Origin: an uncultured virus (IMG/VR IMGVR_UViG_3300037067_020175)
Lineage: Duplodnaviria > Heunggongvirae > Uroviricota > Caudoviricetes
IMG/VR virus record: IMGVR_UViG_3300037067_020175
DNA length: 64,000 nt
Strand: one strand, 5' to 3'
Below, piece after piece: positions 36,527-59,918 of the stretch. The translations under genes were made by a program, and so were the position numbers. How positions within the stretch are numbered: the stretch's first letter is position 1; the number at the start of each line of letters is the position of its first letter. Below the pieces are notes generated by a model. That model worked only from the letters and a program-made list of their open reading frames with translations, did not search any database and was not told the origin of the DNA.

Positions 36527-36527
36527 T

Positions 36528-45823: not shown

Positions 45824-46306
45824 CTACAATTTCACATCTTCTCTCTGTTTTGTCCCATATTCTTTCATTGTTGAAATTATACGGACTGTCGCGGTATTAC
45901 CGGTATCGCATTTAATGAATACTTTCTTTATTTTTGGAGCGCGCATGTCTATTTGAATAGAATCACCGGAGTCAAGTGTTGGGTCTCGTGGGATTTGGGT
46001 GAGATAATACAGACCGTCATTTTCTCCATATTCGTTTACATATAGATGTATCGGGTCTGCACCATCGTTGAATAATGTCATTGCAATCCACGGGAGAGAT
46101 GGCATCACGTCCGGATTAAGTTCCAATAAAGAATCTGTGACATCAAACTCATACTTCTTTACAAGATCTGGTATACTATCTTTCATTACAGCTAATTGTT
46201 CGTAAAGAATACCAGCTATATCGTTCAGGAGCTGCGTCTGAATAATAGTAGGGACATATTCTCTCTCCGATAAGAGAATGTCCATTCCCTGTTTCCTATC
46301 TGCCAT
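45824..46306 (-). CDS. Putative jelly-roll-like virion protein
   Basis: PWIAMTLFNDG...IKKVFIKC; layout like 26800 and 27805. Confidence 0.5.
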   Translation of the reverse strand: MADRKQGMDILLSEREYVPTIIQTQLLNDIAGILYEQLAVMKDSIPDLVKKYEFDVTDSLLELNPDVMPSLPWIAMTLFNDGADPIHLYVNEYGENDGLYYLTQIPRDPTLDSGDSIQIDMRAPKIKKVFIKCDTGNTATVRIISTMKEYGTKQREDVKL

Positions 46307-46307
46307 T

Positions 46308-46616
46308 CTAATGCACCTTTCTTGAGATTGTGATTACCCGTTCGCGCCCGAGCCAATCAGTCCACCTTATATTTTCTTCGTTCTCCACTACGGGTTTGTT
46401 AGATTTAAGGATGTCTTTCGCAGTTAATCCGGGGATATCCTTGTAATAATCACGATGTGATCCAAACCCTGCAAAATCCGGAGATGTCGATGAGGTAGGA
46501 ACAATCGACGATACTGATTGCACATTACGGTTAACGAATATCTGGTATACTACAAATCCGACAACGAGAAGTATAGCTCCACCAGCTACGTAAGTAAAAA
46601 TATCGTCGGTCTCCAT
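46308..46616 (-). CDS. Membrane protein with N-terminal TM
   Basis: VAGGAILLVVGFVVYQIF. Confidence 0.6.
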   Translation of the reverse strand: METDDIFTYVAGGAILLVVGFVVYQIFVNRNVQSVSSIVPTSSTSPDFAGFGSHRDYYKDIPGLTAKDILKSNKPVVENEENIRWTDWLGRERVITISRKVH

Positions 46617-46655
46617 TGTATGATACTTGCGCAAAATAGTATTTAAAGGTTATGT

Positions 46656-47255
46656 TTACTTTTTCTGGTAAAGGGATTCCATAGTATTTGTGATTTCTAT
46701 AAGATTGTTGAAAGCTTCGACCTCGTAACCATCCAACCTGAGCTTCCCTATTCCGTCTATGAGGTCTTTGGTCTCATTCAGGTACATGCGCACGAATCCG
46801 CTTTCGAATCCTTCCATATCCATGAGATTGTCTATGCGGTCACAAATTTTAACCAGAACAGCAAAACGCGGAGTGTGGCTGCTTATGAGTCTCTTGATAC
46901 AGTCCTTGTTCTTAACAGAACGTGGGTGCAGGTCGTCGTTCTTTGTCAGCGCGAGCACGGCATCCGTGATCTGAGTCTTCTCTATATCAGTGAGATGCAT
47001 GTCGTTCATGGCTTGGTTGTATATCGCACGACCTTCATCCCCGCAATCTTCGAGGATATCGTGCATCCATGCTGCGATTGCTGAGTGGTATGCCGTAGGG
47101 TTATAGAATATCACCAGTTGCGCAACCCGCGCAGGGTGGACTATATACGGTACATTCTGGTGCTTCCTTACCTGTCCGTCATGGGCAAGTGCCGCAGCAG
47201 TTGAAGCGACCTTTAACGCTTGTATGTATTTAAATGATTTTACCATTGTTTTCAC
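46656..47255 (-). CDS. HD-domain small alarmone hydrolase (Mesh1/SpoT-like)
   Basis: AHDGQVRK..PYIVHP..V...AAWMHDILED...VKICDRIDNL. Confidence 0.85.
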   Translation of the reverse strand: MKTMVKSFKYIQALKVASTAAALAHDGQVRKHQNVPYIVHPARVAQLVIFYNPTAYHSAIAAWMHDILEDCGDEGRAIYNQAMNDMHLTDIEKTQITDAVLALTKNDDLHPRSVKNKDCIKRLISSHTPRFAVLVKICDRIDNLMDMEGFESGFVRMYLNETKDLIDGIGKLRLDGYEVEAFNNLIEITNTMESLYQKK

Positions 47256-47265
47256 CTACTTGTGA

Positions 47266-47340
47266 TTCTCCCGGTCAGATTTGAACTGACGTTTTCGGGG
47301 TCAAAGCCCAATGTGATTGACCAGACTACACTACGGGAGT
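47266..47340 (-). tRNA. tRNA-Gln(TTG)
   Basis: Cloverleaf; loop CT-TTG-AC; A1.A72 mismatch. Confidence 0.85.
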
Positions 47341-47344
47341 GAAA

Positions 47345-47417
47345 CGTCTCTGGCGCGGCTTGAACGCGCGACTTCACCTTCGCAGGGTGATAGTTTGTCC
47401 ATCTATCCTACAGAGAC
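47345..47417 (-). tRNA. tRNA-Arg(GCG)
   Basis: TCACC CT-GCG-AA GGTGA; archaeal-type anticodon. Confidence 0.9.
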
Positions 47418-47420
47418 ACA

Positions 47421-47509
47421 TGCAGCCGACGAGGATCGAACTCGTTCCTCTTGGTATCTTCCTTTTTCAAGTTGGAAGCCAAGTATGCCACCGTTGACAC
47501 CCCGACTGC
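47421..47509 (-). tRNA. tRNA-Gly(TCC) with 17-nt BHB intron (47456-47472)
   Basis: CTTGG CTTCCA|ACTTGAAAAAGGAAGAT|A CCAAG; strict BHB at 37/38. Confidence 0.9.
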
Positions 47510-47514
47510 TCTAA

Positions 47515-47586
47515 TGAGGTCACCCGGATTTGCACCGAGGTGTAAACGTTCCAAACGTCCACGGATAACTTCTACCTCATGACCCC
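47515..47586 (-). tRNA. tRNA-Pro(TGG)
   Basis: GGACG TT-TGG-AA CGTTT; T-loop TGCAAAT. Confidence 0.85.
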
Positions 47587-47682
47587 TTGTATTACTAAAT
47601 CTCAGTGAGAGAAGTATATAAATCTATGCGGTATAATGTAGGAAAGTAAACGAAAAAGAGAGTTTTTGGGTTATGTCGCGCA

Positions 47683-48345
47683 TCATTTGACGACAATAAA
47701 CCTTCTAATGGTCTTGGTCACACTCCCACCATCGTTTGTGACCATAAGTGATATGTCATATCTCCCGGTTAAAAACACCCGTGTATCTACGGAGGATTCG
47801 CTGAATATTTTCCATCCGGATCCGTCATTATACTTCCACATATAATGAACGATCTCCCCGTTAGTTGTAGGGACAATCGATGTGGATGTTAACTTAACGG
47901 TAAGTGGGGAATACCCATATTGTGGAGAAGCTGTGAATGATACCTTAGGGATGTAATCTGTTCGTATGTATGCAGACTTGACCAAAGAACTCTCTCCACA
48001 ACCGTTGGTAACGTTCAACCGTATATCATACTGACCGGGGTTGAACTTCATCGAAGGGTTTTCTAAAGTAGAGAATTGAATCCACACTCTATCCGATGGA
48101 GCCACATCGTGGCTCCTGAAAGACCATTGGTATTTCAAGTATGTCCCGGTAGAATCGCTTGTAAACTTCACATATAACGGGGAAAACCCAGATGTTGCCG
48201 AAGATGAGAACTCTGATATAGGTTCTACACATACGGCAGGTTGTGTTGGTGGTCTCGAATAGTGGCGAGCTGATGCCGGGAGAATTGCAAATCCGGCGAT
48301 CAATACAAGTGCGATAAGAACCGCAAAAATGTGTTTCCTTTGCAT
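47683..48345 (-). CDS. Secreted double-PKD protein
   Basis: Signal peptide MQRKHIFAVLIALVLIAGFAILPASA; two PKD motif sets. Confidence 0.85.
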   Translation of the reverse strand: MQRKHIFAVLIALVLIAGFAILPASARHYSRPPTQPAVCVEPISEFSSSATSGFSPLYVKFTSDSTGTYLKYQWSFRSHDVAPSDRVWIQFSTLENPSMKFNPGQYDIRLNVTNGCGESSLVKSAYIRTDYIPKVSFTASPQYGYSPLTVKLTSTSIVPTTNGEIVHYMWKYNDGSGWKIFSESSVDTRVFLTGRYDISLMVTNDGGSVTKTIRRFIVVK

Positions 48346-48463
48346 AGTTTATCACCATCATTTCTATTTTCGAATATATATAAACACTTGCATTTTGTCC
48401 AAATGTAGTTTTGGGTATATGCTGGCAAATCTTTAAATATTCACGGAGTCATTATAACATATC

Positions 48464-50401
48464 ATGGCATTGTCAATGGGTGGGAATTTAGGCACTATTC
48501 AGGAAGATATTTATATTTACCAGAATTCTACACATACGATGGCTGAATATAATGGTGCTGTAATATCCACATCGCTCATAAGTCTACTGCGCGACGATGT
48601 GGTATTTGCGGCTGCTTTGGACGCATGCCCGGAGTATGGGATAGTCAAAATCCGTGGGGATTTTACATTCGCGTCTACGGTTACTGGGACGAAATCGGTT
48701 ACAATAATATCCATCGGTGGGTCTATTACGATTCCATCGTCTATGAACCACTACGAGGGATTATATGCAACTCAGGATCACCGCGCGTTTGTTTTTACCG
48801 GAACGACATCTCTCCCTATAGTATTAACATCAAATGCTGACAAGTATGCGACAAGCTTAACCATAGAATCCACCAATGGTCTTACTGGTGGTCAACTTCT
48901 ATACATAGGTGATACGTCATCGTATGACGGTTTCTCTTCGTTTCTGAATGGTGAAATTTGCGAGATAGGGTCTATCACGAGTACAACCGTCTGTGCAATA
49001 AACTCTCCAACTCAGTGTGCATACACTACAGCCAACTCCGCATATGTTATTCCAGCCACCCCAATTTCGGTACATCTCGTAGATATCAAATTTGTCGGGA
49101 CTATTTACAATTCATTTGCTGTAGACTTTGTATATTGCAAAAACAGCTCCGTAAAAGGATGTACATTTGATACCATCACATTTTGTTGTGTGAGAGTTGA
49201 CAACTGCTATAATGTGGATATATCTGGAAATGGATTTTCACATTGTTCTTTTAACTACGGGTATGGGATTGTAATATATAAAGGGTCTAAGTTCGTAGAC
49301 ATCCATCACAATCATTTTTCTCCGATGCTAAACGCAATTACATCCGGTCTTATTTCATACAGTGGCGGATCTCTTCCGGGGATACCAAGTGAAATACGAA
49401 TCTATGAGAATACTATAATTGTTGCCCCGATTTACACGCAGCTTGCATATACCCAATATATATATAATAATGTTATAAAAGGGTCTGCGATTACTGGAGG
49501 TGGATTGGATCTTCTTATCGAGGGGAATACATTCTACAAATGCAATACCGTTTTCGTACCAAATCTCTATATAAGTGGGAAAAAATTGACAATCAGAAAT
49601 AACCGTGTGTTTTTTGATGAAGTATCCGACTGTATTATTTCTGCAACTTCCGGTGGTGCTACGAGAAATTATACGTCAATGGATATAGAGGGTAATGAGT
49701 GTTGGGGTGGAAATATTGCTAAACTATCATCAACACCTATATCCACTCTTGTAATACGGAATAATACTATCAATTCTGTTACTGCAACGAATATTGCAGG
49801 AGCAAATCACGGGATATCAGTGAATGGGGGAGCAACCAACATTTACCCCGACACGTGCGTTGACGGGAACTTTATAACCGGTGTTGGGGGTAACGGAATA
49901 TCCCTTACGAATGTAATTGGAACGTGCCGAAACAATCATATTTACAATCCGGGTAGAATTGGTGCAGGTACTAATTATGGGATATTATTAACACAAACCA
50001 CAACCGGGTTGTGTAATGTCTTATGTGGTGGGAACAGAATTGAGAGTGCGTCATCAGATTTCATGACGTATGGTATTGGGGAAGCTGTTGCTGATGCTTC
50101 TAAGGTTACAAATACTATACCAAATAACTACATATTGAACGCAGTGACATCAAAATATCTCGTCGCTGGTACATATACCGGTGGGATGGAAAAATCTGGT
50201 GTTACGGCAAGCGTCGCGTGGAACGGAACGATTGCTCACGGACTCGGTACAACTCCGAAGTGGGCTATAGTAACGCCATCGACAGCAAGTGAATTTGCTT
50301 CAGTTACTACACTCGATGCAACAAATATCACCGTGTCAGTCAAGAAGCATGATAATACAAATGGAACCACACAGACTCTTTACTGGTCTTGTGGTCTTTA
50401 A
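48464..50401 (+). CDS. Right-handed beta-helix tailspike-like protein
   Basis: Stacked I..N.I repeats; C-terminal IAHGLGTTP. Confidence 0.75.
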   Translation: MALSMGGNLGTIQEDIYIYQNSTHTMAEYNGAVISTSLISLLRDDVVFAAALDACPEYGIVKIRGDFTFASTVTGTKSVTIISIGGSITIPSSMNHYEGLYATQDHRAFVFTGTTSLPIVLTSNADKYATSLTIESTNGLTGGQLLYIGDTSSYDGFSSFLNGEICEIGSITSTTVCAINSPTQCAYTTANSAYVIPATPISVHLVDIKFVGTIYNSFAVDFVYCKNSSVKGCTFDTITFCCVRVDNCYNVDISGNGFSHCSFNYGYGIVIYKGSKFVDIHHNHFSPMLNAITSGLISYSGGSLPGIPSEIRIYENTIIVAPIYTQLAYTQYIYNNVIKGSAITGGGLDLLIEGNTFYKCNTVFVPNLYISGKKLTIRNNRVFFDEVSDCIISATSGGATRNYTSMDIEGNECWGGNIAKLSSTPISTLVIRNNTINSVTATNIAGANHGISVNGGATNIYPDTCVDGNFITGVGGNGISLTNVIGTCRNNHIYNPGRIGAGTNYGILLTQTTTGLCNVLCGGNRIESASSDFMTYGIGEAVADASKVTNTIPNNYILNAVTSKYLVAGTYTGGMEKSGVTASVAWNGTIAHGLGTTPKWAIVTPSTASEFASVTTLDATNITVSVKKHDNTNGTTQTLYWSCGL

Positions 50402-50413
50402 AAACTATTTTTA

Positions 50414-50489
50414 TGGGACTGGTGCGATTTGAACGCACATCAACGCGGTTTTGGAGACCGGCACTCTTATCCAGTTAAGCTACAGCCCC
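50414..50489 (-). tRNA. tRNA-Trp(CCA), intronless, C27.C43 mismatch
   Basis: CCGGT CT-CCA-AA ACCGC; G1 is the last base of the pth2 TAG. Confidence 0.9.
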
Positions 50490-50866
50490 TACAAAAGTTT
50501 AAGGTCTTTCGTAAGTGACGTAAGGTCGTCGAGAGCCGCGCTGCCTTCCGCAAGTGGTTCAAAACCGACAGCCGTTGTTGTTCCCGGTTCGATCTGTGTG
50601 AGACCGGCATCTACAACGATTGCACTGTTAACACCAAAGGAATGTGCCTTCTGTGTGATTTTAACCATAGTCTGGAGATCAGGGACTTTCAGGACAATCT
50701 TACGCATCCCATACTTACGCCACATCTTTGAGATGTATTCTACTCCAACATCTGCACCCATAATTGCAGCGTGAGCTACTTGCACGCATTTCTTGCCGCA
50801 ATCTATCCCAAGATCGGATCGTATGAGGATTACCTGTTTGTATTCCCTGATTTCAGATGGTTTCAT
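50489..50866 (-). CDS. pth2: Peptidyl-tRNA hydrolase Pth2
   Basis: KQVILIRSDL...GK...QVAHAA...KIVLK...VDAGLTQIEPGTTT...LKLL. Confidence 0.92.
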   Translation of the reverse strand: MKPSEIREYKQVILIRSDLGIDCGKKCVQVAHAAIMGADVGVEYISKMWRKYGMRKIVLKVPDLQTMVKITQKAHSFGVNSAIVVDAGLTQIEPGTTTAVGFEPLAEGSAALDDLTSLTKDLKLL

Positions 50867-52035
50867 TATGTATACCTCTTGATTGCGACTATTCCACCGA
50901 ATGCAGTCTCTAATATATTCCCGCTTTCGGTGTTTGTCGCGATTATCTCTACTTTTGTATCAGTTTTAGAGTATCTCGACACTTTGTCGCGATAATTGTC
51001 TACATAGGTGTTTCGATTAGAAGATATTAATACTATCGCGACACTTCCATGTTCAATCGATTCTGAAATTGTATCGATACCGTATATAGCTTTTCCAGTG
51101 TCTCTCGCAAGTTCTTTGAGGAATTCGTCGAACAGTTCTTTCTGGTGTTCCGATTCGATATCGGATATCTTACCTTTAGCCGCGCGCACAAGTTCCTGTA
51201 ATCCCGATTCGTTGGTGTAACATGTGTCGAATACACCGACGATTTTCTTCCGTAGTTCGTGGTTAAGGTAGTCTCCGCGCGCGAATTCGTCTTTGGTCAT
51301 TCCACATCCGCCTATGATGATACCTTTCAGATTTGTTCCATATTGAACAAATGTGTTGCTTGCGCGTTCACCGAGGTTCGTAAAGAACCCGTGGATTGCG
51401 ATATCCCGTAACCGTTCGAACCGTTGCGCGGATTGTCCACCCTGACTATGCTTATTTGGGACGAGAGAGTCGTATGTTCCTGAAAGACGCACAGATGCGC
51501 CTTTGAGTATTCCCCACGCAGACTCGTGCAGGTCGAGAACGATGAGACCGTATGTGTCTCCAGTATCGATTAAGTCTTCAGCATCAGATGTCGCAAATTG
51601 TGAATCGCACCGATACAGGAAAGATTTGACCGGTGATGGTGGATTGAGAAGATGATACTCGAATTCAGTGCGGTCTCCGCGCGTTATAACCTCTCCGCAG
51701 AATGCAATCAGACCGTTGTCCGGTATAATCCCAATCTGTGAGAATCTGGATATAAGTGCGTTCAGTGCGTGCTGGACGCTGGTTCTTGTCTGTTTACTCT
51801 TGATGTTGCCAGTTCCTGCAATCTCGTTCCGTAGACGGTTTGCAACATCAGAAATGCGTTTTGATCCCGGAACGTAGAGGGATATAAGTTCAGTGCCGTT
51901 CCCACGTTTCTCTTTTAAGGAAGAGATCTCACTTTTGAAAATATTTCAATTTCCGTCTTCTGTCGGTTTGATATTTCCTTCACGATCTCCTATAAGATTC
52001 TTTTCTCCTTTGAGATTTCTATCGTGTTCATCCAT
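50866..52035 (-). CDS. prf1: Archaeal peptide chain release factor 1 (aRF1) with one in-frame TGA at 51948-51946
   Basis: 1170 nt in frame from ATG 52035; GTELISLY, NIKS, YRCDS, KHSQGGQSAQRF, FGGIVA; the ORF track captures only the 3' 208 aa. Confidence 0.88.
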
Positions 52036-52070
52036 AATCATTAGTGTGTGATTGTAGTATATAAATATAA

Positions 52071-52146
52071 CGCGCACGGGGAGATTTGAACTCCCGGCAT
52101 CAGAATTAGAAGTTCTGCCTATTAGTCCAAGCTATAGTACGTGCGC
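52071..52146 (-). tRNA. tRNA-Arg(TCT)
   Basis: CAGAA CT-TCT-AA TTCTG. Confidence 0.9.
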
Positions 52147-52150
52147 TCAA

Positions 52151-52221
52151 TGCACCCAGACGGTAACGCTCCGTCGCATCTCGGATGTAAACCGAGTATT
52201 CTACTTTTAAATTACGGGTGC
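52151..52221 (-). tRNA. tRNA-Val(TAC)
   Basis: CTCGG TT-TAC-AT CCGAG; atypical T-loop AGCGTTA. Confidence 0.8.
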
Positions 52222-52225
52222 TCAA

Positions 52226-52299
52226 TGGGTGCGAGGCGATTCGAACACCTACCCCCCGGATCAAAAGTCCAGTGCTCTTCCATTTGGAGCTACGCACCC
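52226..52299 (-). tRNA. tRNA-Lys(TTT)
   Basis: CTGGA CT-TTT-GA TCCGG. Confidence 0.9.
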
Positions 52300-52302
52300 G
52301 TA

Positions 52303-52378
52303 TCTGCTGGGAGAGACTTGAACTCTCGATGAATAATAGGTCTACAGCCCATCGCAATCGCCGCTATGCCACCAGCAG
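52303..52378 (-). tRNA. tRNA-Tyr(GTA)
   Basis: ATGGG CT-GTA-GA CCTAT; C1:G72/A73, no long variable arm (archaeal type). Confidence 0.9.
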
Positions 52379-52540
52379 TCTGTGGTTATTTGTTTCTTAT
52401 CAACTGCACGAGGATGTTAATTGCACATTCGTGTTCATGCTCTCCCCACCATTCACACCGGGTTTCGCTGTCATATGGGTATCCATGATTACACTTTGAT
52501 CTTTTATATAATGGACATAGACCTTCGCCATGCATGTTGA

Positions 52541-53266
52541 CTACTTCCTGTTTGTTGGCTCAAGCCATAATTCCCCGGTTCCAAATACTGCGTATTGGAT
52601 TTTTGGGAATTCGGATAGTATATCTAATGTTTGAATTGTTGAGTATTTAAACATTTTTAACAATTCGTCTTTTTTTCTGTCCATAGATATGTTGGTTCTT
52701 AACAGTTCGACGTATCTGTCGTCGTCAAGTAGTCTCTGGATCGTCGGGTCGATCTGCATTCCCTTCATAACAGAAAATCGAAGCGCGCGGATCATACGTA
52801 AAGCATCTTCAGCAAATCTTTCGCGGGGATCTCCAACGCATCTAAGATATCTGGCTCCAATATCAGCAATCCCGTGGAATGGATCTATATATGTGAGTCC
52901 TTCTGTACACGGGTATATTTGCATGGCTATTGCGTTTACGGTAAAGTCTCTCCGTGCGAGGTCGTCATAGATTGTCCCGTGATATACCACATCTGGTCTT
53001 CGTCCGTCGGTGTATGCACCTTCGCGCCTACAGAGAACAAAGTCAGCATCTCCTGTGAATCCTTCGAGATTGTTTAGTCGTGCCCGTATGGTGAGATATT
53101 CTGGCTTTTCGAGATAGATCTTCCCGTGTCTCTTGATGAAATCTCGCATTGCCTCGTAGCTTGATGCTTCTACAGAGAAATCGATGTCTTTATTTTTAAC
53201 TCCGAGGAACTGATCGCGCACAGCACCACCAACCATATATATACCTGTAACGGACATTTTGACCAA
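52541..53266 (-). CDS. Class II (bacterial-type) tRNA nucleotidyltransferase / CCA-adding enzyme, short form
   Basis: VGGAVRD...KDIDF, DLARRDFTVNA, RFAEDALRMIRALRF. Confidence 0.88.
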   Translation of the reverse strand: MVKMSVTGIYMVGGAVRDQFLGVKNKDIDFSVEASSYEAMRDFIKRHGKIYLEKPEYLTIRARLNNLEGFTGDADFVLCRREGAYTDGRRPDVVYHGTIYDDLARRDFTVNAIAMQIYPCTEGLTYIDPFHGIADIGARYLRCVGDPRERFAEDALRMIRALRFSVMKGMQIDPTIQRLLDDDRYVELLRTNISMDRKKDELLKMFKYSTIQTLDILSEFPKIQYAVFGTGELWLEPTNRK

Positions 53267-53321
53267 CTTATACTTACTTGATGGGAAACATTAATATATC
53301 TTTGTATTTAATACTCTCACA

Positions 53322-54329
53322 TTGGAGAGTTCTATGTATTTTACACCAGAAGGGCTATATGGGAATAATGTAAGTCTTACGTATTTCAGAATGGAGGGTC
53401 AGAGGACAGACGGATACAGTTCGCCGGGAGCTGATATGGAATGTATGGTCACATTCAATGCCGGGGAGTCCGGGTGCAACATTACAACCGGGTTCTGCAA
53501 CCCCGGCGCGCAGATTGCTTGGTATGTGAATGGTGTCCTGAAACAAGATACTGTCTGGTCTGGGTATAATGGTGGTCTCGGAGGATATATCGCAACATTT
53601 CGTGTAATCGCGCCTCAGTCCGGGACAATGACGGTCACTGCGGTAAGTGCAAACACGGTAACGTTTACAATACAAGTTCTTGACGATTTTCAGGATGCCG
53701 GGATCGTATCCGTATCCAACGTTTACTGTGGGAACAGTCCATATAATAATGCAAGTTGTGACGGGTCAAATCTCATAATTTACTTTTATAGAACTCCCGT
53801 AGAAACCGGGAATGGTGTCGCATACGTCGATATTTATATGGACGGTGTTCTAAAAGTGGGGAAAGTTCCAACATCATCATCTGTCGCTGGATACGATAGT
53901 CACACAATATCGTGTCCATCGGATAACGTCTCACACACGATTCTTGTAAAAGGTAAGAACGACTCTGGAGCATCTGTTGTTCTCCCATCTGGTGGAAATC
54001 CATGTCTCACAAACCCTTGTGGAGCCGGATGCCCAGACCAGTATAAATGCGGCGTGTGTGTAAACTGTGGAAATATATGTCAGGAAGATCACTGTGCAGA
54101 AGGATGCACCGACTATTACCTGTGCGGTCAGTGTGGAAATCCACCATGTGGGACATGTACAGATCCTCCATGTGGGGTTGGGTGTCCGGATTATGGCACA
54201 TCGATTTGTGGAGGTAGTGTAAGCAGTGATATCTTCACTCAGATAACAAGATTTATTACAGAGCACCCTGCGGAATCTGCGGTTGCAGGTGTGATAGCCC
54301 TAATGCTGATAATTCCTTCGAAAAAGTAG
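53322..54329 (+). CDS. Ig-like + Cys-rich C-terminally anchored protein
   Basis: CLTNPCGAGCP...; EHPAESAVAGVIALMLIIPSKK (similar to 24156-24755). Confidence 0.75.
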   Translation: MESSMYFTPEGLYGNNVSLTYFRMEGQRTDGYSSPGADMECMVTFNAGESGCNITTGFCNPGAQIAWYVNGVLKQDTVWSGYNGGLGGYIATFRVIAPQSGTMTVTAVSANTVTFTIQVLDDFQDAGIVSVSNVYCGNSPYNNASCDGSNLIIYFYRTPVETGNGVAYVDIYMDGVLKVGKVPTSSSVAGYDSHTISCPSDNVSHTILVKGKNDSGASVVLPSGGNPCLTNPCGAGCPDQYKCGVCVNCGNICQEDHCAEGCTDYYLCGQCGNPPCGTCTDPPCGVGCPDYGTSICGGSVSSDIFTQITRFITEHPAESAVAGVIALMLIIPSKK

Positions 54330-54570
54330 AAAACGCAGTAAGTGGTATACTCGCCGGGTCGAGTTCTCCCGGCAAAATATACCGAATTAATTCCTGATAT
54401 CTTCTTTTTCTCACAATTTTGGGTTCGTTCTTAGGATCGCAGCACCACGGGCAGTCTCTTCCGGGGTGGTTAATCTGCTTATATGGGTGGTGATAAATGC
54501 CACAAACGTGGCGGGTTATTCTCAAGACTTTCGGATCGTTATAGATTCTCCGTGTGTCTGACATAATCAT
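54256..54570 (-). CDS. Hypothetical protein
   Basis: 104-aa ORF with CPWCCD; 3' overlap with the convergent gene. Confidence 0.35.
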   Translation of the reverse strand: MIMSDTRRIYNDPKVLRITRHVCGIYHHPYKQINHPGRDCPWCCDPKNEPKIVRKRRYQELIRYILPGELDPASIPLTAFSTFSKELSALGLSHLQPQIPQGAL

Positions 54571-54618
54571 GTATTTGTTTTATAAAGATTTTAAACTTCC
54601 GTGTTGTCTGACATACGT

Positions 54619-54800
54619 CTTACGGGGTACTTAGGGGGTACTTACGGGGTACTTACCGGGTCTCCGGCGTGAGCTTACTGGGTATGCTTACTGGGTAGGT
54701 AGGCAGCTTACTGGGTATTTACTCGCGAATTACTAAAAAATAAGCGAATAAATATTTATTAACTCGCATATTACTCAAAAATAAGCGAGTAAATAATTTA
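54619..54800. repeat. Iteron-like tandem repeats and two imperfect palindromes in an intergenic region
   Basis: CTTA(C/G)GGGGTA-type units x4, GCTTACTGGGTA x3, then two copies of ACTCGC..ATTACT.AAAAATAAGCGA.TAAATA. Confidence 0.8.
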
Positions 54801-54835
54801 GGAATGTTTAAATAGTCGTATTACTATCGTAATGT

Positions 54836-55045
54836 ATGGCTGAACATTGTTTATGTTATAATACTGGAACCACAAATATCCAGAGTGCGTCGTTTGAAGA
54901 AGCGGCTGTATTAGATAGTGGTGTCGCTGGAATCGCAGTGTTATCTATATATTTACTCGCCGGTGCATTTTTGGTCGGACTTGGTTTTGCGTATGGATCT
55001 AATACAGCAAATTGCTTACCCACATGTGGGAAGAGATACGGGTAA
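54836..55045 (+). CDS. Small membrane protein
   Basis: TATA box at 54808; TM segment. Confidence 0.55.
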
Positions 55046-55414
55046 CCGGTACTTGTGGAATCCTATACCATTTCTTGATTTTAATATACCAGCACAAGTT
55101 TTATTACAACAGAACTCTGTGATGCCTTTTCCGATTTGACGATTATAGTGACTACTTGTTATAGGAAAGATCGTCTCACAAATATGACAAGATATCATTC
55201 TCGTAGGTAATTTTGGGTGATGAAAGGAAGCATGTGGTTTTTTGGAAGTTATCTCTAAATTTTCTATACGATTGTCTGTTTTTATACCATTTATATGATG
55301 TACTTCTTCATTTGGATGTAACTTTCTACCAAGATATGACTCCATCACTATACGATGTTCGAGAACTGTTTCTCCATCAGATGTTACTCTCGGATATGGA
55401 TTATTTCTATCCAT
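55016..55414 (-). CDS. HNH homing endonuclease
   Basis: [12 protein letters not shown]...[16 protein letters not shown]...H. Confidence 0.88.
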
Positions 55415-55445
55415 GTATATATTTTTATATCTAATTCTATTTAAA

Positions 55446-55519
55446 TGCTCCCGATGGGATTCGAACCCATGCCGAAAGGTTGAAAGCCTCTCATCGCTTG
55501 ACCGCTAGACTACGGGAGC
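55446..55519 (-). tRNA. tRNA-Glu(TTC)
   Basis: AGAGG CT-TTC-AA CCTTT. Confidence 0.9.
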
Positions 55520-55522
55520 CAA

Positions 55523-55593
55523 TTCTCGTAGGGTGAATCGAACACCCGTCTCGCCCTTATAAGGAGCGCCCACTGCCATTGTGGTATACGAGA
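55523..55593 (-). tRNA. tRNA-Ile(TAT)
   Basis: CGCTC CT-TAT-AA GGGCG; acceptor TCTCGTA/TACGAGA. Confidence 0.85.
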
Positions 55594-55595
55594 GA

Positions 55596-55667
55596 TGCGA
55601 CTACCGGAACTTGCATCCGATCTTCCTGCATGGCAAGCAGGTATCATACTACATCGATCATAGTCGC
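55596..55667 (-). tRNA. tRNA-Gly(GCC)
   Basis: CCTGC TT-GCC-AT GCAGG. Confidence 0.8.
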
Positions 55668-55670
55668 TCA

Positions 55671-55742
55671 TTCGCCCACGAGGATTCGAACCTCGGTAAC
55701 GGCTGTATCAGAACCGGAGACTAACCACTGTCCTATAGGCGA
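55671..55742 (-). tRNA. tRNA-Ile(GAT)
   Basis: CGGTT CT-GAT-AC AGCCG. Confidence 0.85.
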
Positions 55743-55745
55743 TCA

Positions 55746-55816
55746 TACACCCAGACGGTATCGCGCCGTCTTCTCCTGAATGTCAATCAGGTATTCTACT
55801 TTTGAATTATGGGTGT
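55746..55816 (-). tRNA. tRNA-Val(GAC)
   Basis: CCTGA TT-GAC-AT TCAGG; T-loop CGCGATA. Confidence 0.8.
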
Positions 55817-55820
55817 TCAG

Positions 55821-56054
55821 AGGGCTCGGTGGGGATCGAACCCACTACTTCCAGTTTTCCGGAGTGTAATCGCACGACATACGAGACTGGAGGCAGGACT
55901 TTACTGCATTTACCCACACTTTATTTTCCGTTATTGTCTCGAATCAGGGGAGTTTCAAGGTTCCCTGAGCCACATGCAGGTGGTTTTGAGATCACTCGTA
56001 TGCCGCGCGATTACCTTTACAGGACTGGCGCAGTTCCATTACTGCTCCGAACCC
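55821..56054 (-). ncRNA. tRNA-like RNA (possibly tRNA-Thr(TGT)) with a 161-nt structured insert in the anticodon loop (55857-56017)
   Basis: Acceptor GGGTTCG/CGAGCCC+U73, D stem GCAG/CTGC, anticodon stem CCAGT/ACTGG, T-loop TTCGAT; insert closed by a 20-bp helix. Confidence 0.75.
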
Positions 56055-56088
56055 TTAAATTCTCGTTGCTGGCTTAATTTCCAGCTCA

Positions 56089-56163
56089 TGCACCCGTTCG
56101 GACTCGAACCGAAACAGTTAACCGGTCTTCAGCCGGTCGCGCTCCCAATTGTGCCACGGGTGC
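56089..56163 (-). tRNA. tRNA-Phe(GAA)
   Basis: ACCGG CT-GAA-GA CCGGT. Confidence 0.9.
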
Positions 56164-56325
56164 GGTTAAAATTTCCTCATTATTGGAAGGTTAATTCCCG
56201 AATTCTTCTTCGGTGAAAAAAGTTCGGGTGCCTTCACTAAACGTTTCCCACGTCTCGCGACCTGTTATAATAACACCCGATAATGTCATACTTACCTGTT
56301 GATTCTGAATATATTTAAAGGTTTG

Positions 56326-57636
56326 TTATTCTCCTTGCGATTCCTCGATGTCTACAGACTCCGGGTCGAGCTTGATTATATCTTCCAAAACTTTGAACTG
56401 GAAACTCTTGTACTTCCAGACCTGCCACTTTGAACCATCCGCGCGCACGACAACTCCCTCTCTGATATGCTTGTCGCAGAGTGTGGAATCTCCATTCACA
56501 TGGTGGTCGTCGAGGTAGTGCAGGAGTTGTGTTGCGTTTGCGTTCTCTCCTTCTCCGGTGCCAAGTCTGAACAGGGTTCTACCGAGCTCAGGGACGTGCT
56601 TAACATCCATCTCCGCGCACCGGTGCTTCACCATGTCCCATGAGTAGTCTACTTCGTCTCCTTCATCGTTGGTGATGGTCATGCGGTAGACATAGACATC
56701 GTGGACACCCTGACCGCAACCATACGTGAAGTGAGTGGTCTTCCCATACTTCTTCACGAATTCCTTGTCCTGAAGCTTGGTGTTGTCAGCCGAAGGCATG
56801 ATGGGAGTGTGCTCAGCCGCGTATCCTACCACTTCGTAGTATACTGTTTCTCCCTTGCGGAGTTTGCCGACAAACCGGTTGTGCGCGCATTCCCGGTATT
56901 TCTCGTTGTCTCCGTAGAATCCACGGTAAGTTGCGAAATCCTTGATCACAACCCGGCGTGTGCCACCGACATACTTGTAGTTTCTGACCGGATTGATTAT
57001 GGTTCTTTTCAGGAGTCCGTTGATAATGCGTCCATACCACGCGTGCTTCTCTTCAATAGAGTTGCTGGTGCGCTGAGATGTTCCATGAACCTTCTCGGTT
57101 ATGATCAGGAACATTCCGTCCTTGAGTTCATCGAGACGGTATGCAAGCTGCTGAGTATCGGGCATCTCGTAGAACATTGGGAACTTGATCTTTTCTACGA
57201 ATTCTTTCTTCTGTGAGCGCGCATTCTGCGTCTTTGTATTCACGAACTTCTCACAGATCTTGTGACCGTTGAACTCTGTGAATGCAAGTCCGATTTCGAG
57301 TTTGTAGATGTCTATTCCCGTATATGACACACTTTCGAGTGAACAGAAGTATCCATCGCTCTTTTCCTTGCGGATTTTCTGCGTGCGTACTTTTCCATTT
57401 GGGTCGAAAAGTCCTCCTATGTTCTTACCGTCTACTACATTGCGCACGAGGTTGTTTACCCGCAGGTATTCCTCCGATAGTCTGCCATCGGCTGGAAAGT
57501 AAATTCCCACATCGTTCTCTTTGACATCGAGACCGACTACGACTTGGTTTCCGAAGCACTCACCAAGTAAAAGGCTGTGTGCGTCCGGGTGCTTTCTCAC
57601 GTTTGTGATTCTTGTTACAAATGCTGTGTATGCCAA
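56326..57636 (-). CDS. RNA ligase, DRB0094/Rnl2-like family with N-terminal OB-like domain
   Basis: ITEKVHGTS (motif I), VYYE, REGVVVR, WKYKS; N-term KHPDAHSL..GIYFPADG. Confidence 0.85.
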   Translation of the reverse strand: MAYTAFVTRITNVRKHPDAHSLLLGECFGNQVVVGLDVKENDVGIYFPADGRLSEEYLRVNNLVRNVVDGKNIGGLFDPNGKVRTQKIRKEKSDGYFCSLESVSYTGIDIYKLEIGLAFTEFNGHKICEKFVNTKTQNARSQKKEFVEKIKFPMFYEMPDTQQLAYRLDELKDGMFLIITEKVHGTSQRTSNSIEEKHAWYGRIINGLLKRTIINPVRNYKYVGGTRRVVIKDFATYRGFYGDNEKYRECAHNRFVGKLRKGETVYYEVVGYAAEHTPIMPSADNTKLQDKEFVKKYGKTTHFTYGCGQGVHDVYVYRMTITNDEGDEVDYSWDMVKHRCAEMDVKHVPELGRTLFRLGTGEGENANATQLLHYLDDHHVNGDSTLCDKHIREGVVVRADGSKWQVWKYKSFQFKVLEDIIKLDPESVDIEESQGE

Positions 57637-57656
57637 CGATTTTCACCTCGTTTGGA

Positions 57657-57727
57657 CGGGCTCAACGGGGATCGAACCCGCGAGAAGGGATTAAGAGTCC
57701 CTCATGTTACCTCTACATCATGAACCC
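57657..57727 (-). tRNA. tRNA-Lys(CTT)
   Basis: AGGGA CT-CTT-AA TCCCT. Confidence 0.9.
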
Positions 57728-57730
57728 TGA

Positions 57731-57802
57731 TACGACTACCGGGAGTTGCACCCGGACTCAAAGGCTGAGAACCTCTGTTCCTTACTGTTAGATTATAGTC
57801 GC
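57731..57802 (-). tRNA. tRNA-Glu(CTC)
   Basis: AGAGG TT-CTC-AG CCTTT. Confidence 0.85.
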
Positions 57803-57813
57803 GCATTTTTCTA

Positions 57814-57886
57814 CAGGCGCGCCGGGAGTTGCACCCGGATCGTTTGGTTCGAAGCCGAACAGGATTATCTGCTACCCCACGCACCT
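57814..57886 (-). tRNA. tRNA-Arg(TCG)
   Basis: TTCGG CT-TCG-AA CCAAA. Confidence 0.85.
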
Positions 57887-57894
57887 ACTTTGTT

Positions 57895-58102
57895 ATTATG
57901 ACGGAAGTTTTTGTACAAGTCCGTTCGTTTCCCTCCCGCGCGGGTGACTAGCCCTCCGCGTTCCACGGGAACACCGATGTGGGGTAATGAGCCCCGGTTG
58001 GCTTCACACTCAGACCTTTTCTTTCCGGGTAGCGACGAGTTGCACGCGCGCCACCAACCTACCGCGAATCGACATCGATACTACAGGTTTCGAACCCTGT
58101 AA
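57895..58102 (-). ncRNA. Unassigned structured RNA within the tRNA operon
   Basis: GC-rich; stems TACAGG/CCTGTA, TATCGATGT/ACATCGGTG, GGTTGG/CCAACC, GGTGGCG/CGCTACC. Confidence 0.5.
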
Positions 58103-58103
58103 A

Positions 58104-58177
58104 TGGACAGAGCGGGATTTGAACCCGCAGCCGCCGATTTGCAAAACCGGAAATCTGCCAATTGGATCTATCTGCCC
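58104..58177 (-). tRNA. tRNA-Ala(TGC)
   Basis: CCGGT TT-TGC-AA ATCGG; G3.U70. Confidence 0.9.
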
Positions 58178-58199
58178 AATATTAACGCGCCGAAGCGCA

Positions 58200-58271
58200 C
58201 GGACACACCGGGTACTGCCCCCGGATCTGCTGAGTGACAGTCAGCCATACTTACTTCTATACTATGCGTCC
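58200..58271 (-). tRNA. tRNA-Asp(GTC)
   Basis: GCTGA CT-GTC-AC TCAGC; G73. Confidence 0.85.
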
Positions 58272-58275
58272 AAAG

Positions 58276-58349
58276 GGTATCAGGTGGGATTCGCACCCAT
58301 CTCTGCGAGATTCACAGTCTCGTGTGCTGCTGACTACACTACCGACACC
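58276..58349 (-). tRNA. tRNA-His(GTG) with encoded G-1
   Basis: CGAGA CT-GTG-AA TCTCG; G-1:C73. Confidence 0.88.
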
Positions 58350-58350
58350 A

Positions 58351-58603
58351 CTGGTAGTGGGGATAAAGTCTCCCGCGCGCATCTTCTCCCCAGCACACGC
58401 GCGGTGTTATCGACTTGTGGTAGTCATGACTTTACTCTATAACCACGTTAGACACTCCCACTACGCTTACACGCGGGAGAACGGGAACACCTCTTGCGTA
58501 GGAATTGCCATTGCACGTCCGTTTATCTTGATGACGGTGACAGGAACGGATAAGGCACCGGGGATTTATGGCGTACCAGACCTCTCACAGATGTAAGGCT
58601 GTG
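58351..58603 (-). ncRNA. Second unassigned structured RNA within the tRNA operon
   Basis: Stems CTGGTA/TACCAG, GCCAT/ATGGC, TCCGTT/AACGGA, TCTCCCGCGTGT/GCGCGCGGGAGA; possible pseudoknot TAAAGTC/GACTTTA. Confidence 0.5.
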
Positions 58604-58605
58604 GA

Positions 58606-58678
58606 TAGTTCCCGGAAGATTCGAACTTCCGTCGCGAGATCCAGAGTCTCGAATGCTTGACCACTACACTAGGGAACT
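58606..58678 (-). tRNA. tRNA-Gln(CTG)
   Basis: CGAGA CT-CTG-GA TCTCG; A1:U72 (archaeal type). Confidence 0.9.
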
Positions 58679-58693
58679 TCTTATAGCGCAGGA

Positions 58694-58764
58694 TTCCGGG
58701 AAACGGGGTTGCGCCGCTTCTTTAAGCTTATGAGGCTTGCATGCTGCTGTTACATCATCCCGGA
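58694..58764 (-). tRNA. tRNA-Met/Ile2(CAT)
   Basis: CAAGC CT-CAT-AA GCTTA; first gene after a TATA-like box near 58795. Confidence 0.8.
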
Positions 58765-58804
58765 TCTTGTGATCATAATGTTTGATGTGGTGGTATATAA
58801 CTGT

Positions 58805-59344: not shown

Positions 59345-59448
59345 AATTCATATTTGATTACAATCTATATAAATTTATATGTAAATTGCACTCGTTAATC
59401 AACAGTGCTATGCAAGTGTTTATAAACCCTTTCATTCAATATGAGATC

Positions 59449-59901: not shown

Positions 59902-59918
59902 CAATCGGGTGTGTGTAA

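What the first reader, a model, noticed from the sequence alone, without database searches (positions are those of the whole stretch)
50414..50866. aRF1-Pth2-tRNA-Trp operon with a 4-bp anticodon stem: a built-in UGA suppressor?
Seen: the aRF1 stop overlaps the pth2 start, and the pth2 TAG supplies G1 of tRNA-Trp(CCA). This is the only tRNA isolated from the clusters. Its anticodon stem is CCGGT/ACCGC, so 27 and 43 form a C.C mismatch leaving 4 bp. It also lacks the intron typical of euryarchaeal tRNA-Trp. Known: a 4-bp anticodon stem in tRNA-Trp(CCA) promotes UGA readthrough in Blastocrithidia. Inference: the operon encodes the near-cognate tRNA that reads the UGA in its own aRF1, with Pth2 recycling dropped-off peptidyl-tRNA. 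Caveat: tRNA-Met here also has a 27.43 mismatch.
Basis: partly seen in the sequence, partly recalled or inferred. Interest (0 to 1): 0.85.

Follow-up and report, generated by a model that had tools for sequence, protein, structure and literature searches.

The report
Conserved in-frame UGA in viral aRF1
A large virus-like element of archaea carries its own translation release factor gene that is interrupted near its start by a UGA stop codon kept in every relative found, so the factor is most likely made only when ribosomes read through that stop; the oddly shaped tryptophan tRNA next to it is not needed for this.

Summary
tRNA-Trp(CCA) lies at 50414-50489 (-). Its first G is the G of the pth2 TAG, and the top of its anticodon stem (C27/C43) is unpaired. 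The aRF1 stop overlaps the pth2 start, and aRF1 has an in-frame TGA at 51946-51948.

This aRF1 belongs to a separate clade (100/100 support) found on metagenome contigs, some of 120-128 kb. All 7 of 7 loci with an N-terminus (6 distinct sequences, 53-77% identical) have TGA exactly 46 codons before NIKS, always after AAT. Five of the six distinct sequences have no ordinary start codon early enough after the TGA to encode a near-complete factor. Synonymous sites are saturated, yet 354-359 codons downstream stay open. TGA ends 16 of 69 ORFs in the window, so the code is standard.

The best reading is programmed UGA readthrough that senses termination activity, like bacterial RF2 and Mimivirus R726.

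tRNA-Trp does lie within about 1 kb of aRF1 in 4 of 5 informative loci. Pth2 linkage is seen only in this lineage.

The parts
50414..50489 (-). tRNA-Trp(CCA), 76 nt, no intron, no encoded CCA end. Anticodon is 50454-50452. The stem 5' strand is 50461-50457 (CCGGT) and the 3' strand is 50449-50445 (ACCGC). C27 (50461) and C43 (50445) are unpaired.
   Evidence: ARAGORN; Rfam 53.3 bits; ViennaRNA centroid with a 4-bp stem; contigs of X1, X3 and X4 cover it without differences.
50489..50866 (-). pth2 (archaeal/eukaryotic-type peptidyl-tRNA hydrolase, 125 aa). Its ATG overlaps the aRF1 TAA by one base, and its TAG ends on tRNA-Trp G1.
   Evidence: ORF; PF01981 E 4.9e-28; sequence.
50866..51945 (-). 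aRF1 body (359 codons plus TAA) downstream of the in-frame TGA. It has all three eRF1 domains and the NIKS, YxCxxxF and GGQ motifs. It lacks the insertion that cellular aRF1 has in domain 3.
   Evidence: Translation; Pfam PF03463/PF03464/PF03465; alignment.
51946..51948 (-). In-frame TGA (context AAT TGA A), the recoding site.
   Evidence: same position in 7 of 7 related loci; no variant in contigs of three studies.
51949..52041 (-). Leader of 31 codons (MIMDEHDRNLKGEKNLIGDREGNIKPTEDGN) in the same frame as aRF1. Its end, P-T-E-D-G-N, matches the relatives' M-x-P-E-E-D-G/E-N leader.
52058..52065 (-). TATA-like box (TTTATATA) about 17-24 nt before the first ATG. It may be an archaeal promoter for a leaderless or short-leader mRNA. 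This is an inference only.
   Evidence: Sequence read; not tested.
52071..52146 (-). tRNA-Arg(TCT), the last gene of a four-tRNA cluster directly upstream of aRF1. A tRNA-Arg also directly precedes aRF1 in L004, L005 and L006.
57813..57887 (-). tRNA-Arg(TCG), the other tRNA in the window that is near-cognate to UGA. Its anticodon stem has a C29.A41 mismatch.
   Evidence: That tRNA-Arg(UCG) is near-cognate to UGA is established knowledge and was not tested here.

Best explanation
The window is part of a large virus-like mobile element of archaea that carries a translation kit: 23 tRNAs, a CCA-adding-type nucleotidyltransferase, an RNA ligase, an HD-domain protein, Pth2 and its own class-I release factor, aRF1.

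The aRF1 gene starts with a short leader ORF that ends in UGA. This leader is 31 codons here and 8 codons, M-x-P-E-E-D-G/E-N, in four relatives. The release-factor body follows in the same frame. In five of the six distinct sequences it has no ordinary start codon of its own early enough to give a near-complete factor.

Full-length aRF1 is therefore made only when a ribosome decodes that UGA as an amino acid instead of terminating. This is programmed readthrough. The most likely decoder is a near-cognate tRNA: tRNA-Trp(CCA), or possibly tRNA-Arg(UCG).

Release factors compete with near-cognate tRNAs at that codon. High termination activity, from host or viral aRF1, would therefore cut production of the viral factor, and low activity would raise it. 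That is a negative feedback or sensor of the same logic as the bacterial RF2 frameshift site and the Mimivirus R726 readthrough site.

What is shown: the UGA, its conservation, purifying selection on both sides of it, and standard use of TGA as a stop elsewhere.

What is inferred: that readthrough (rather than another bypass) is the mechanism, which residue is inserted, and the feedback function.

The unpaired C27/C43 of this element's tRNA-Trp is a feature of this lineage and is not part of the conserved device. At most it raises readthrough here, where the UGA is followed by A rather than the C found in all relatives.
For: 1. Conserved position. TGA lies exactly 14 codons before GNGTELIS and 46 codons before NIKS in 7 of 7 loci that hold the N-terminus (L003, which is identical to the window, and L004-L009). 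It is always preceded by AAT. It is followed by C in the 6 relatives and by A in the window.

2. Spread across the clade. These loci fall in all subclades of a clade that is separated from 12 cellular-type aRF1s and one IMG/VR aRF1-like row by a branch with 100/100 support and length 1.1.

3. Selection. Pairwise aa identity is 53-77%, dN is 0.15-0.42, and dS is saturated or not computable. There are no further stops in 354-359 codons. The TGA has therefore been kept while neutral sites turned over.

4. The leader is coding and in frame. P-E-E-D-G/E-N is kept with synonymous changes (CCT/CCA/CCC/CCG, GAT/GAC). SD-like GGTGA or GGAG motifs sit 6-8 nt before the leader ATG in L004-L006 (I read the motifs by eye).

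5. No other way in. After the TGA there are 0 ATG/GTG/TTG codons before NIKS in L003-L005. The single TTG/GTG in L006, L008 and L009 lies 38, 24 and 9 codons before NIKS. By contrast, all 149 cellular-type loci evaluated have an ordinary start at least 45 codons before NIKS (6 of 162 loci could not be evaluated).

6. No code change. TGA ends 16 of 69 non-overlapping ORFs in the window. No other gene is split by TGA into two parts of at least 100 codons each, apart from one pair (11288-12034, minus strand) that overlaps plus-strand ORFs. TGA-C ends only 1 of the 69.

7. No cognate suppressor. None of the 23 tRNAs has a UCA anticodon.

8. Recognition and catalytic motifs are intact: NIKS, YxCxxxF, GGQ and the Glu six residues before NIKS. 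The factor should therefore see UGA. This last step is an inference.

9. Precedent. The Mimivirus R726 and Megavirus mg280 class-I release factors need readthrough of a conserved UGA-C in the 5' part of the gene. Those authors proposed a virus-encoded tRNA-Trp as the decoder and autoregulation as the purpose (PMC3521657, abstract and passages).
Against: No expression or protein data exist. No RNA run was listed, so readthrough itself is unobserved.

No conserved downstream RNA structure was evident in single-sequence folds of 90 nt. The window's own context, UGA-A, is not the leaky one.

Whether archaeal ribosomes read UGA-C through at a useful rate is not known to me.

The feedback function is argued from analogy. 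The viral factor's stop-codon specificity is untested.

Two relatives carry further lesions. L010 has TAA in place of a conserved Tyr, and L007 has CGQ in place of GGQ. Both sit on short contigs, so some copies may be decaying or the contigs may carry errors.

Whether the element is a virus is not settled, because no capsid, portal or terminase was recognised.
Confidence: 0.7

Rival explanations
1. The operon encodes a dedicated suppressor: tRNA-Trp(CCA) with a 4-bp anticodon stem is what reads the aRF1 UGA, and Pth2 clears dropped peptidyl-tRNA.
For: The top pair is unpaired. The tRNA has A9 and G24, so it is 'Blastocrithidia-like' in the sense of PMC13092985. That paper reports about 2.5-fold more UGA readthrough in E. 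coli from unpinning this pair (passages). In this lineage the three genes are contiguous with overlapping ends. The window is also the one case with the poorer UGA-A context, so a stronger decoder could compensate (n = 1).
Against: 3 of 3 tRNA-Trp genes found beside UGA-bearing aRF1 genes in relatives have five standard pairs (L004, L008, L009). Pth2 does not follow aRF1 in L004, L005, L008 or L009. 27/43 mismatches also occur in tRNA-Met of the window and in Asp, Tyr and Lys tRNAs of related loci. 4-bp-stem tRNA-Trp makes up 8.9% of bacterial tRNA-Trp(CCA), mostly in standard-code genomes (PMC13092985). Infernal offers a 5-pair alignment with a bulge.
Confidence: 0.15
2. The leader is a separate small upstream ORF, and the aRF1 body is started independently. 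This would be by reinitiation or at a non-canonical start codon just after the UGA, so no readthrough occurs.
For: The UGA lies about where ordinary short aRF1s begin. For example, P0121 starts 4 residues before the aligned position. The window has ATT two codons after the TGA.
Against: No start-like codon is conserved after the UGA; the next codons are CAG, CTA or AAT. The strictly kept same-frame arrangement, the invariant AAT TGA and the zero spacing are what readthrough needs, not what reinitiation needs.
Confidence: 0.07
3. UGA is a sense codon (for example Trp) in the host or in the element, so this is an ordinary codon.
For: Three database proteins of the clade (P0001, P0002, P0012) show W at the aligned position. 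This may only reflect gene callers using a code in which TGA is Trp.
Against: TGA ends 16 of 69 ORFs in the window, and no other gene needs TGA read through. No tRNA has a UCA anticodon. The DNA behind P0001, P0002 and P0012 could not be seen.
Confidence: 0.03
4. The UGA encodes selenocysteine.
For: UGA is the Sec codon, and some archaea have the Sec machinery.
Against: Rfam found nothing but tRNAs in 46000-60000 at gathering thresholds. No tRNA-Sec is present. The position is at the variable N-terminal edge of the protein, where cellular aRF1s have Lys, Arg or Glu. Whether Rfam would recognise an archaeal SECIS element here was not checked.
Confidence: 0.03
5. The gene is a pseudogene or the TGA is an assembly error.
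For: L010 and L007 show further lesions on short contigs.
Against: The same codon is at the same place in six divergent sequences with saturated dS and otherwise open frames. It is identical in contigs from three studies.
Confidence: 0.02

Closest known systems
Mimivirus R726 / Megavirus mg280 class-I release factor (Jeudy et al. 2012, PLoS Genet, PMC3521657; abstract and passages read)
   Same: It is a virus-encoded eRF1/aRF1-type release factor. Its 5' part holds a conserved in-frame UGA (UGA-C) that must be read through. A virus-encoded tRNA-Trp was proposed as the near-cognate decoder. The authors interpreted it as autoregulation.
   Different: Those genes also need a +1 frameshift at a second stop. 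Here one in-frame UGA suffices. The hosts are amoebae, whereas this element has archaeal features. The Mimivirus tRNA-Trp was noted for a Hirsh-like A in the D arm, whereas this one has G24 and an unpaired 27/43. Sequence relatedness between the two factors was not tested here.
Bacterial prfB (RF2) programmed +1 frameshift at an in-frame UGA (own knowledge; also described in PMC3521657)
   Same: An early in-frame UGA in a release-factor gene makes synthesis depend inversely on termination activity at that codon.
   Different: RF2 is unrelated in sequence to aRF1. It uses a frameshift (CUU UGA C plus an SD-like element), not same-frame readthrough.
Plant eRF1-1 autoregulation by readthrough of its own stop codon coupled to NMD (PMC5397192; title and abstract seen in listings)
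   Same: The level of an eRF1-family factor is set by readthrough at a stop codon in its own mRNA.
   Different: There the stop is the normal terminal one and the effect works through mRNA decay. Here the stop is at the 5' end and gates synthesis directly.
Blastocrithidia-like tRNA-Trp(CCA) with a 4-bp anticodon stem (the Kachale et al. 2023 work is recalled, not read; bacterial survey PMC13092985, passages read)
   Same: CCA anticodon, 7-nt loop, unpaired top pair of the anticodon stem, and no A9C or G24A.
   Different: In those organisms UGA is a genome-wide Trp codon. Here UGA is a normal stop, and the stem feature is absent from the 3 related tRNA-Trp genes. The mismatch here is C.C with an extra nucleotide in the 39-48 region.

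Membership tests
aRF1/eRF1 class-I release factor | Three eRF1 domains (PF03463, PF03464, PF03465) | tested here: met
   E 2e-14, 2.7e-36 and 1.1e-16, all above the curated cut-offs.
aRF1/eRF1 class-I release factor | NIKS, YxCxxxF and GGQ motifs | tested here: met
   GNIKSKQ, YRCDSQF and HSQGGQS are present in the window protein and aligned with cellular aRF1. The motif names are from own knowledge.
aRF1/eRF1 class-I release factor | Release activity on archaeal ribosomes and omnipotent stop recognition | not testable with these tools
   Needs biochemistry.
Release-factor genes with autoregulatory recoding (RF2 type, Mimivirus R726 type) | In-frame stop early in the release-factor gene, conserved among relatives | tested here: met
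   7 of 7 loci have TGA 46 codons before NIKS. 0 of 149 cellular-type loci show this arrangement.
Release-factor genes with autoregulatory recoding (RF2 type, Mimivirus R726 type) | Frameshift needed to continue (RF2; second site of R726) | tested here: not met
   The body continues in the same frame in all 7 loci. This is readthrough type only.
Release-factor genes with autoregulatory recoding (RF2 type, Mimivirus R726 type) | Weak termination context at the recoded stop, avoided at true stops | tested here: inconclusive
   The context is UGA-C in the 6 relatives but UGA-A in the window. TGA-C ends 1 of 69 window ORFs. The leakiness of UGA-C in archaea is unknown to me.
Release-factor genes with autoregulatory recoding (RF2 type, Mimivirus R726 type) | Product level responds inversely to release-factor activity | not testable with these tools
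   Needs a reporter assay.
Blastocrithidia-like 4-bp-stem tRNA-Trp(CCA) suppressor | CCA anticodon, 7-nt loop, top pair 27/43 unpaired, no A9C or G24A | tested here: met
   ARAGORN and the ViennaRNA centroid show this. A9 and G24 were read. Infernal gives an alternative bulged 5-pair alignment.
Blastocrithidia-like 4-bp-stem tRNA-Trp(CCA) suppressor | Goes with use of UGA as a sense codon across the genome | tested here: not met
   TGA ends 16 of 69 ORFs, and only aRF1 needs it read.
   0 of 3 related tRNA-Trp genes have the short stem.
Pth2 peptidyl-tRNA hydrolase | PF01981 domain over the full length | tested here: met
   Residues 9-125 match profile positions 1-115 of 115, E 4.9e-28.
Selenoprotein gene | SECIS element and tRNA-Sec | tested here: inconclusive
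   No Rfam hit other than tRNA in 46000-60000, and no tRNA-Sec. Coverage of archaeal SECIS elements by the library was not checked.

The most novel reading that the evidence does not exclude
This may be the first release-factor feedback device in the archaeal domain. An ancestral programmed UGA readthrough gates a virus-encoded aRF1. In this one lineage the readthrough site has drifted to a poorer context (UGA-A, with a longer leader), and the element's own tRNA-Trp has in step lost the top pair of its anticodon stem. That would be a natural, co-evolved 'unpinned' UGA decoder working at a single codon without any change of genetic code.
Probability: 0.2. Interest if true: 0.85.

Novelty: new variant of a known kind. 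Interest (0 to 1): 0.72.

Why it matters
Release-factor genes that sense their own activity through a stop codon inside the gene are known from bacteria (RF2) and from giant viruses of amoebae. Five full-text searches found no description of one in archaea or their mobile elements. A tblastn of 50,697 deposited phage and archaeal-virus records found no aRF1 homologue at all.

A conserved, same-frame UGA at the start of a whole clade of aRF1 genes would be a third, independent invention of the same control logic. It would give a compact natural cassette (8 codons plus UGA) for measuring readthrough and termination efficiency on archaeal ribosomes.

It also matters for annotation. Most database entries of this clade are truncated at internal start codons, because gene callers stop at the UGA.

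Finally, the window offers a natural comparison, an unpaired versus a paired 27/43 in tRNA-Trp beside the same recoding site. That comparison can test whether the 4-bp-stem effect seen in eukaryotes and E. coli also holds in archaea.

Tried and rejected
- Whole genome: none is held for this window. The records behind L004 and L009 are not held either, so the rest of those 120-128 kb contigs could not be searched for tRNA-Trp or for other recoded genes.
- Close relatives in IMG/VR: the single-protein scan found none. The profile scan found only two distant aRF1-like genes (L001, L002). L001 has an ordinary ATG start.
- GTDB genomes: only cellular Thermoplasmatota-type aRF1 at 35-45% identity.
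- Deposited phages and archaeal viruses: no aRF1 match.
- RNA evidence: no RNA holder was listed. All runs laid were contigs, so nothing can be said about expression, transcript ends or tRNA processing.
- Downstream RNA structure: single-sequence folds of the 90 nt after the UGA showed no shared hairpin. No covariation test was made, because the region is coding.
- General TGA recoding: rejected.
- UCA suppressor tRNA: none among the 23 tRNAs.
- Viral hallmark genes: Pfam and PHROGs recognised no capsid, portal or terminase. ORF 28233-29375 is a beta-helix protein. ORF 40572-42170 gave only weak leads to Uroviricota clusters. 'Virus' therefore remains a likely label, not a shown one.
- Representative-library search: the clade collapses to two truncated representatives. 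It did not tell which residue stands at the UGA position in any relative with a sense codon.
- Earlier notes of this scan: nothing on this genome or sequence. One unrelated note on UGA recoding in another element was not used.
- Hirsh-type D-arm change: not present; position 24 is G.
Full report
**What is at the coordinates.** ARAGORN and Rfam's tRNA model (53.3 bits) place a 76-nt tRNA-Trp(CCA) at 50414-50489 on the minus strand. A 125-codon ORF at 50489-50866 lies directly upstream on the same strand. It is a full-length Pth2 peptidyl-tRNA hydrolase (PF01981, E 4.9e-28). Its TAG occupies 50491-50489, so the G of TAG is tRNA position 1. Upstream again is an aRF1 gene. Its TAA (50868-50866) shares one base with the pth2 ATG (50866-50864). 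Read from the ATG at 52041, the aRF1 frame runs through an in-frame TGA at 51948-51946. This is codon 32, or codon 30 from the second ATG at 52035. The frame then continues for 359 codons with all three eRF1 domains. After the TGA the next ATG, GTG or TTG in frame is at 51492, inside domain 2.

**The anticodon stem.** The arm reads CCGGT / CTCCAAA / ACCGC. ARAGORN draws four pairs and a C.C at 27/43. The ViennaRNA centroid also keeps only the four inner pairs. Infernal prefers a different description: a bulged C on the 3' strand, then a C-G fifth pair and a five-base variable loop. Either way there is one nucleotide too many between positions 39 and 48, and the top of the stem is irregular. 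Positions 9 and 24 are A and G, so the known D-arm suppressor changes are absent. The tRNA has no intron. Across 72 tRNAs parsed from the window and related loci, 66 anticodon stems are fully paired. Four have a 27/43 mismatch (window Trp, L002 Asp, L007 Tyr, L010 Lys) and two have an internal mismatch, one of them the window's tRNA-Arg(TCG) (two odd ARAGORN calls were skipped).

**The setting.** The window has 23 tRNA genes, all on the minus strand between 47266 and 58764. ARAGORN's default run found 17. A relaxed run added four, including a tRNA-Gly(TCC) with a 17-nt intron. Rfam added Asp and Met. None has a UCA anticodon. Around them lie:
- a PolyA_pol-head nucleotidyltransferase (52541-53266)
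- an RNA ligase (56326-57636)
- an HD-domain protein (46656-47255)
- HNH endonucleases
- a prim-pol-like 1109-aa protein
- a UvsW-like helicase
- exonucleases
- a ParB-DNA methylase
- many PKD, CARDB and beta-helix proteins

No capsid, portal or terminase was recognised, and no whole genome is held. I call it a large virus-like mobile element of archaea. The archaeal assignment rests on aRF1 and Pth2 themselves, the intron-bearing tRNA and a TATA-like box before aRF1. The nearest cellular aRF1s are from Thermoplasmatota and methanogens at about 40% identity.

**The aRF1 UGA is conserved.** A protein search found a distinct set of relatives at 49-66% identity. Many of them are annotated as truncated proteins of 277-348 aa that begin at internal codons. 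A metagenome scan with a profile of this set returned L003, an independent 11.9-kb contig identical to the window over aRF1, and seven further members, L004-L010. L010 lacks the N-terminus. In all seven loci that hold it, the frame contains TGA at the same aligned place, 14 codons before GNGTELIS and 46 codons before NIKS. The codon before it is always AAT. The base after it is C in the six relatives (TGA CAG in L004, L008 and L009; TGA CTA in L005-L007) and A in the window. In L004-L007 the frame opens only eight codons earlier with ATG, giving M-x-P-E-E-D-G/E-N. Third positions vary synonymously (CCT/CCA/CCC/CCG, GAT/GAC), and in L004-L006 a GGTGA- or GGAG-like motif sits 6-8 nt before the ATG (I read the motifs by eye). 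The window's longer leader ends in the same P-T-E-D-G-N.

**Controls for the conservation.** Of 162 fetched loci, 156 could be evaluated. All 149 cellular-type aRF1 loci have an ordinary start codon at least 45 codons before NIKS, and none has the viral arrangement. L001, an IMG/VR aRF1-like gene, has an ordinary ATG. In a maximum-likelihood tree of 29 rows, the 16 clade members form one side of a branch with 100/100 support and length 1.1. The TGA-bearing loci are spread over all of its subclades, so the TGA is ancestral to the clade.

**It is under selection and is not an error.** Pairwise amino-acid identity among the seven sequences is 53-77%. dN is 0.15-0.42, while dS is above 1.9 or not computable. 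No other stop occurs in 354-359 codons. A neutral lesion would not stay fixed as the same codon while synonymous sites saturate. Contigs from three separate studies cover the window's TGA with no differing letter (X1, possibly the source, plus X3 and X5). X1, X3 and X4 likewise cover the tRNA-Trp.

**It is not a change of genetic code.** Among 69 non-overlapping ORFs of at least 80 codons (86% of the window), 41 end in TAA, 16 in TGA and 12 in TAG. TGA-C ends only one. Reading TGA as sense joins no other pair of segments of at least 100 codons, except one pair on the strand opposite to annotated-looking ORFs.

**Most likely mechanism.** The body of the factor can be reached only by decoding the UGA in frame. 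With no cognate tRNA, that means near-cognate decoding, by tRNA-Trp(CCA) or tRNA-Arg(UCG). Both are encoded in the window. At that codon the tRNA competes with release factor, so the yield of full-length viral aRF1 should fall as termination activity rises. This is the logic of the RF2 frameshift site. More closely, it is the logic of the Mimivirus R726 and Megavirus mg280 release-factor genes. In those genes a conserved UGA-C in the 5' part must be read through, a virus-encoded tRNA-Trp was proposed as the decoder, and readthrough was shown in an E. coli expression system (PMC3521657; abstract and passages read). Here the UGA, its conservation and the selection on both sides are shown. Readthrough, the inserted residue and the feedback function are inferred. 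The recognition motifs of the viral factor are intact (NIKS, YxCxxxF, the Glu six residues before NIKS, and GGQ), so it should itself recognise UGA. This is untested.

tRNA-Trp is indeed often next to this gene:
- 0.4 kb downstream in the window
- about 0.35 kb upstream in L004, where it has a 17-nt intron
- 0.13 kb downstream in L008
- 0.9 kb upstream in L009, where it is the only tRNA in 9 kb

It is absent from the 5.4-kb L005 contig. L006, L007 and L010 are too short to tell. But aRF1 sits inside tRNA arrays, and Arg and Lys tRNAs are equally frequent neighbours, so the linkage is only suggestive. The decisive point is that the three related tRNA-Trp genes have complete five-pair stems: CTGGT/ACCAG in L004 and L008, and TTCGC/GCGAA in L009. 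Pth2 follows aRF1 only in the window and its identical copy L003. A survey of bacteria found that 4-bp-stem tRNA-Trp(CCA) makes up 8.9% of such tRNAs, mostly in standard-code genomes. It also found that unpinning the top pair raised UGA readthrough about 2.5-fold in E. coli (PMC13092985, passages read). The feature can therefore matter, but on its own it does not signal recoding.

One pattern keeps a bolder reading alive. The window is the only member with UGA-A and a long leader, and it is the only one with the unpaired stem. With n = 1 this is a hypothesis, not a finding.

**Prior description.** Five full-text searches found no paper describing an aRF1 gene in an archaeal virus or an in-frame UGA in an archaeal release-factor gene. 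The library does not hold most subscription journals. No supplements were consulted.

**Verdict.** It is wrong in making the 4-bp stem and the three-gene operon the heart of the matter. What is really there is a conserved, same-frame UGA gate at the start of a clade of aRF1 genes carried by mobile elements. It is a new variant of release-factor autoregulatory recoding.

Noticed in passing
window 50489-50491: tRNA-Trp G1 is the last base of the pth2 TAG. If RNase P cuts a joint transcript there, the mRNA would end in ...UA with no complete stop codon, which would make it a non-stop message for pth2.
   Followed up: no
window 57813-57887: tRNA-Arg(TCG), the other tRNA near-cognate to UGA, has a C29.A41 mismatch inside its anticodon stem. 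So two of the three irregular anticodon stems among the 23 tRNAs belong to UGA near-cognates. The Arg(TCG) genes next to aRF1 in L005 and L010 are fully paired.
   Followed up: partly
L008 1448-1537: A tRNA-Asn(GTT) with a 16-nt intron sits between aRF1 and tRNA-Trp. The codon before the UGA is AAT (Asn) in all 7 loci, so the two tRNAs that would occupy the P and A sites at the recoding site are adjacent in this locus.
   Followed up: no
L007 (aRF1 at 296-1360): The catalytic GGQ reads CGQ (KHSQCGQS) in this 1461-nt contig. This may be a sequencing error or an inactive copy.
   Followed up: no
L010 around 429-431: A TAA replaces a Tyr that is conserved in the clade (KGG*INHEL) on a 1066-nt contig. 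It could be an error, decay or a second recoding site.
   Followed up: no
L004 2558-2649: A 92-nt tRNA (Rfam 56.6 bits) is read by ARAGORN either with a four-base anticodon (catc) or as Glu(ctc) with a 5-nt intron at an odd place. Its identity is unresolved.
   Followed up: partly
window 47421-47509: tRNA-Gly(TCC) has a 17-nt intron after position 37. This is an archaeal-type feature in a mobile element's tRNA. The tRNA-Trp of L004 also has one, while the window's tRNA-Trp has none.
   Followed up: partly
window 46656-47255, 52541-53266, 56326-57636: An HD-domain protein, a PolyA_pol-head (class II CCA-adding type) nucleotidyltransferase and an RNA ligase lie among the tRNA clusters. Together with aRF1 and Pth2 they look like a tRNA repair and translation-maintenance kit. 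The nucleotidyltransferase is of the bacterial/eukaryotic class, not the archaeal class I type (own knowledge).
   Followed up: no
window 35801-39761: A cluster of glycosyltransferases and SAM methyltransferases sits beside several beta-helix, PKD and CARDB proteins. It may be a surface-glycan or virion-glycosylation module.
   Followed up: no
window 576-1337 and 59386-59901: A radical-SAM/4Fe-4S protein and a nucleoside 2-deoxyribosyltransferase-like protein may act in nucleotide or DNA modification.
   Followed up: no
L001 3989-4984: An 82-kb IMG/VR contig carries a very divergent aRF1-like gene (34% identity) with an ordinary ATG start and no in-frame UGA. It appears to be a second, separate acquisition of aRF1 by a viral contig.
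   Followed up: partly
window 51915 (loose ends): Contigs in runs X1 and X4 diverge from the window at 51915 into sequence that matches the L005-type aRF1 leader region. Two members of the clade therefore co-occur in the same samples.
   Followed up: no
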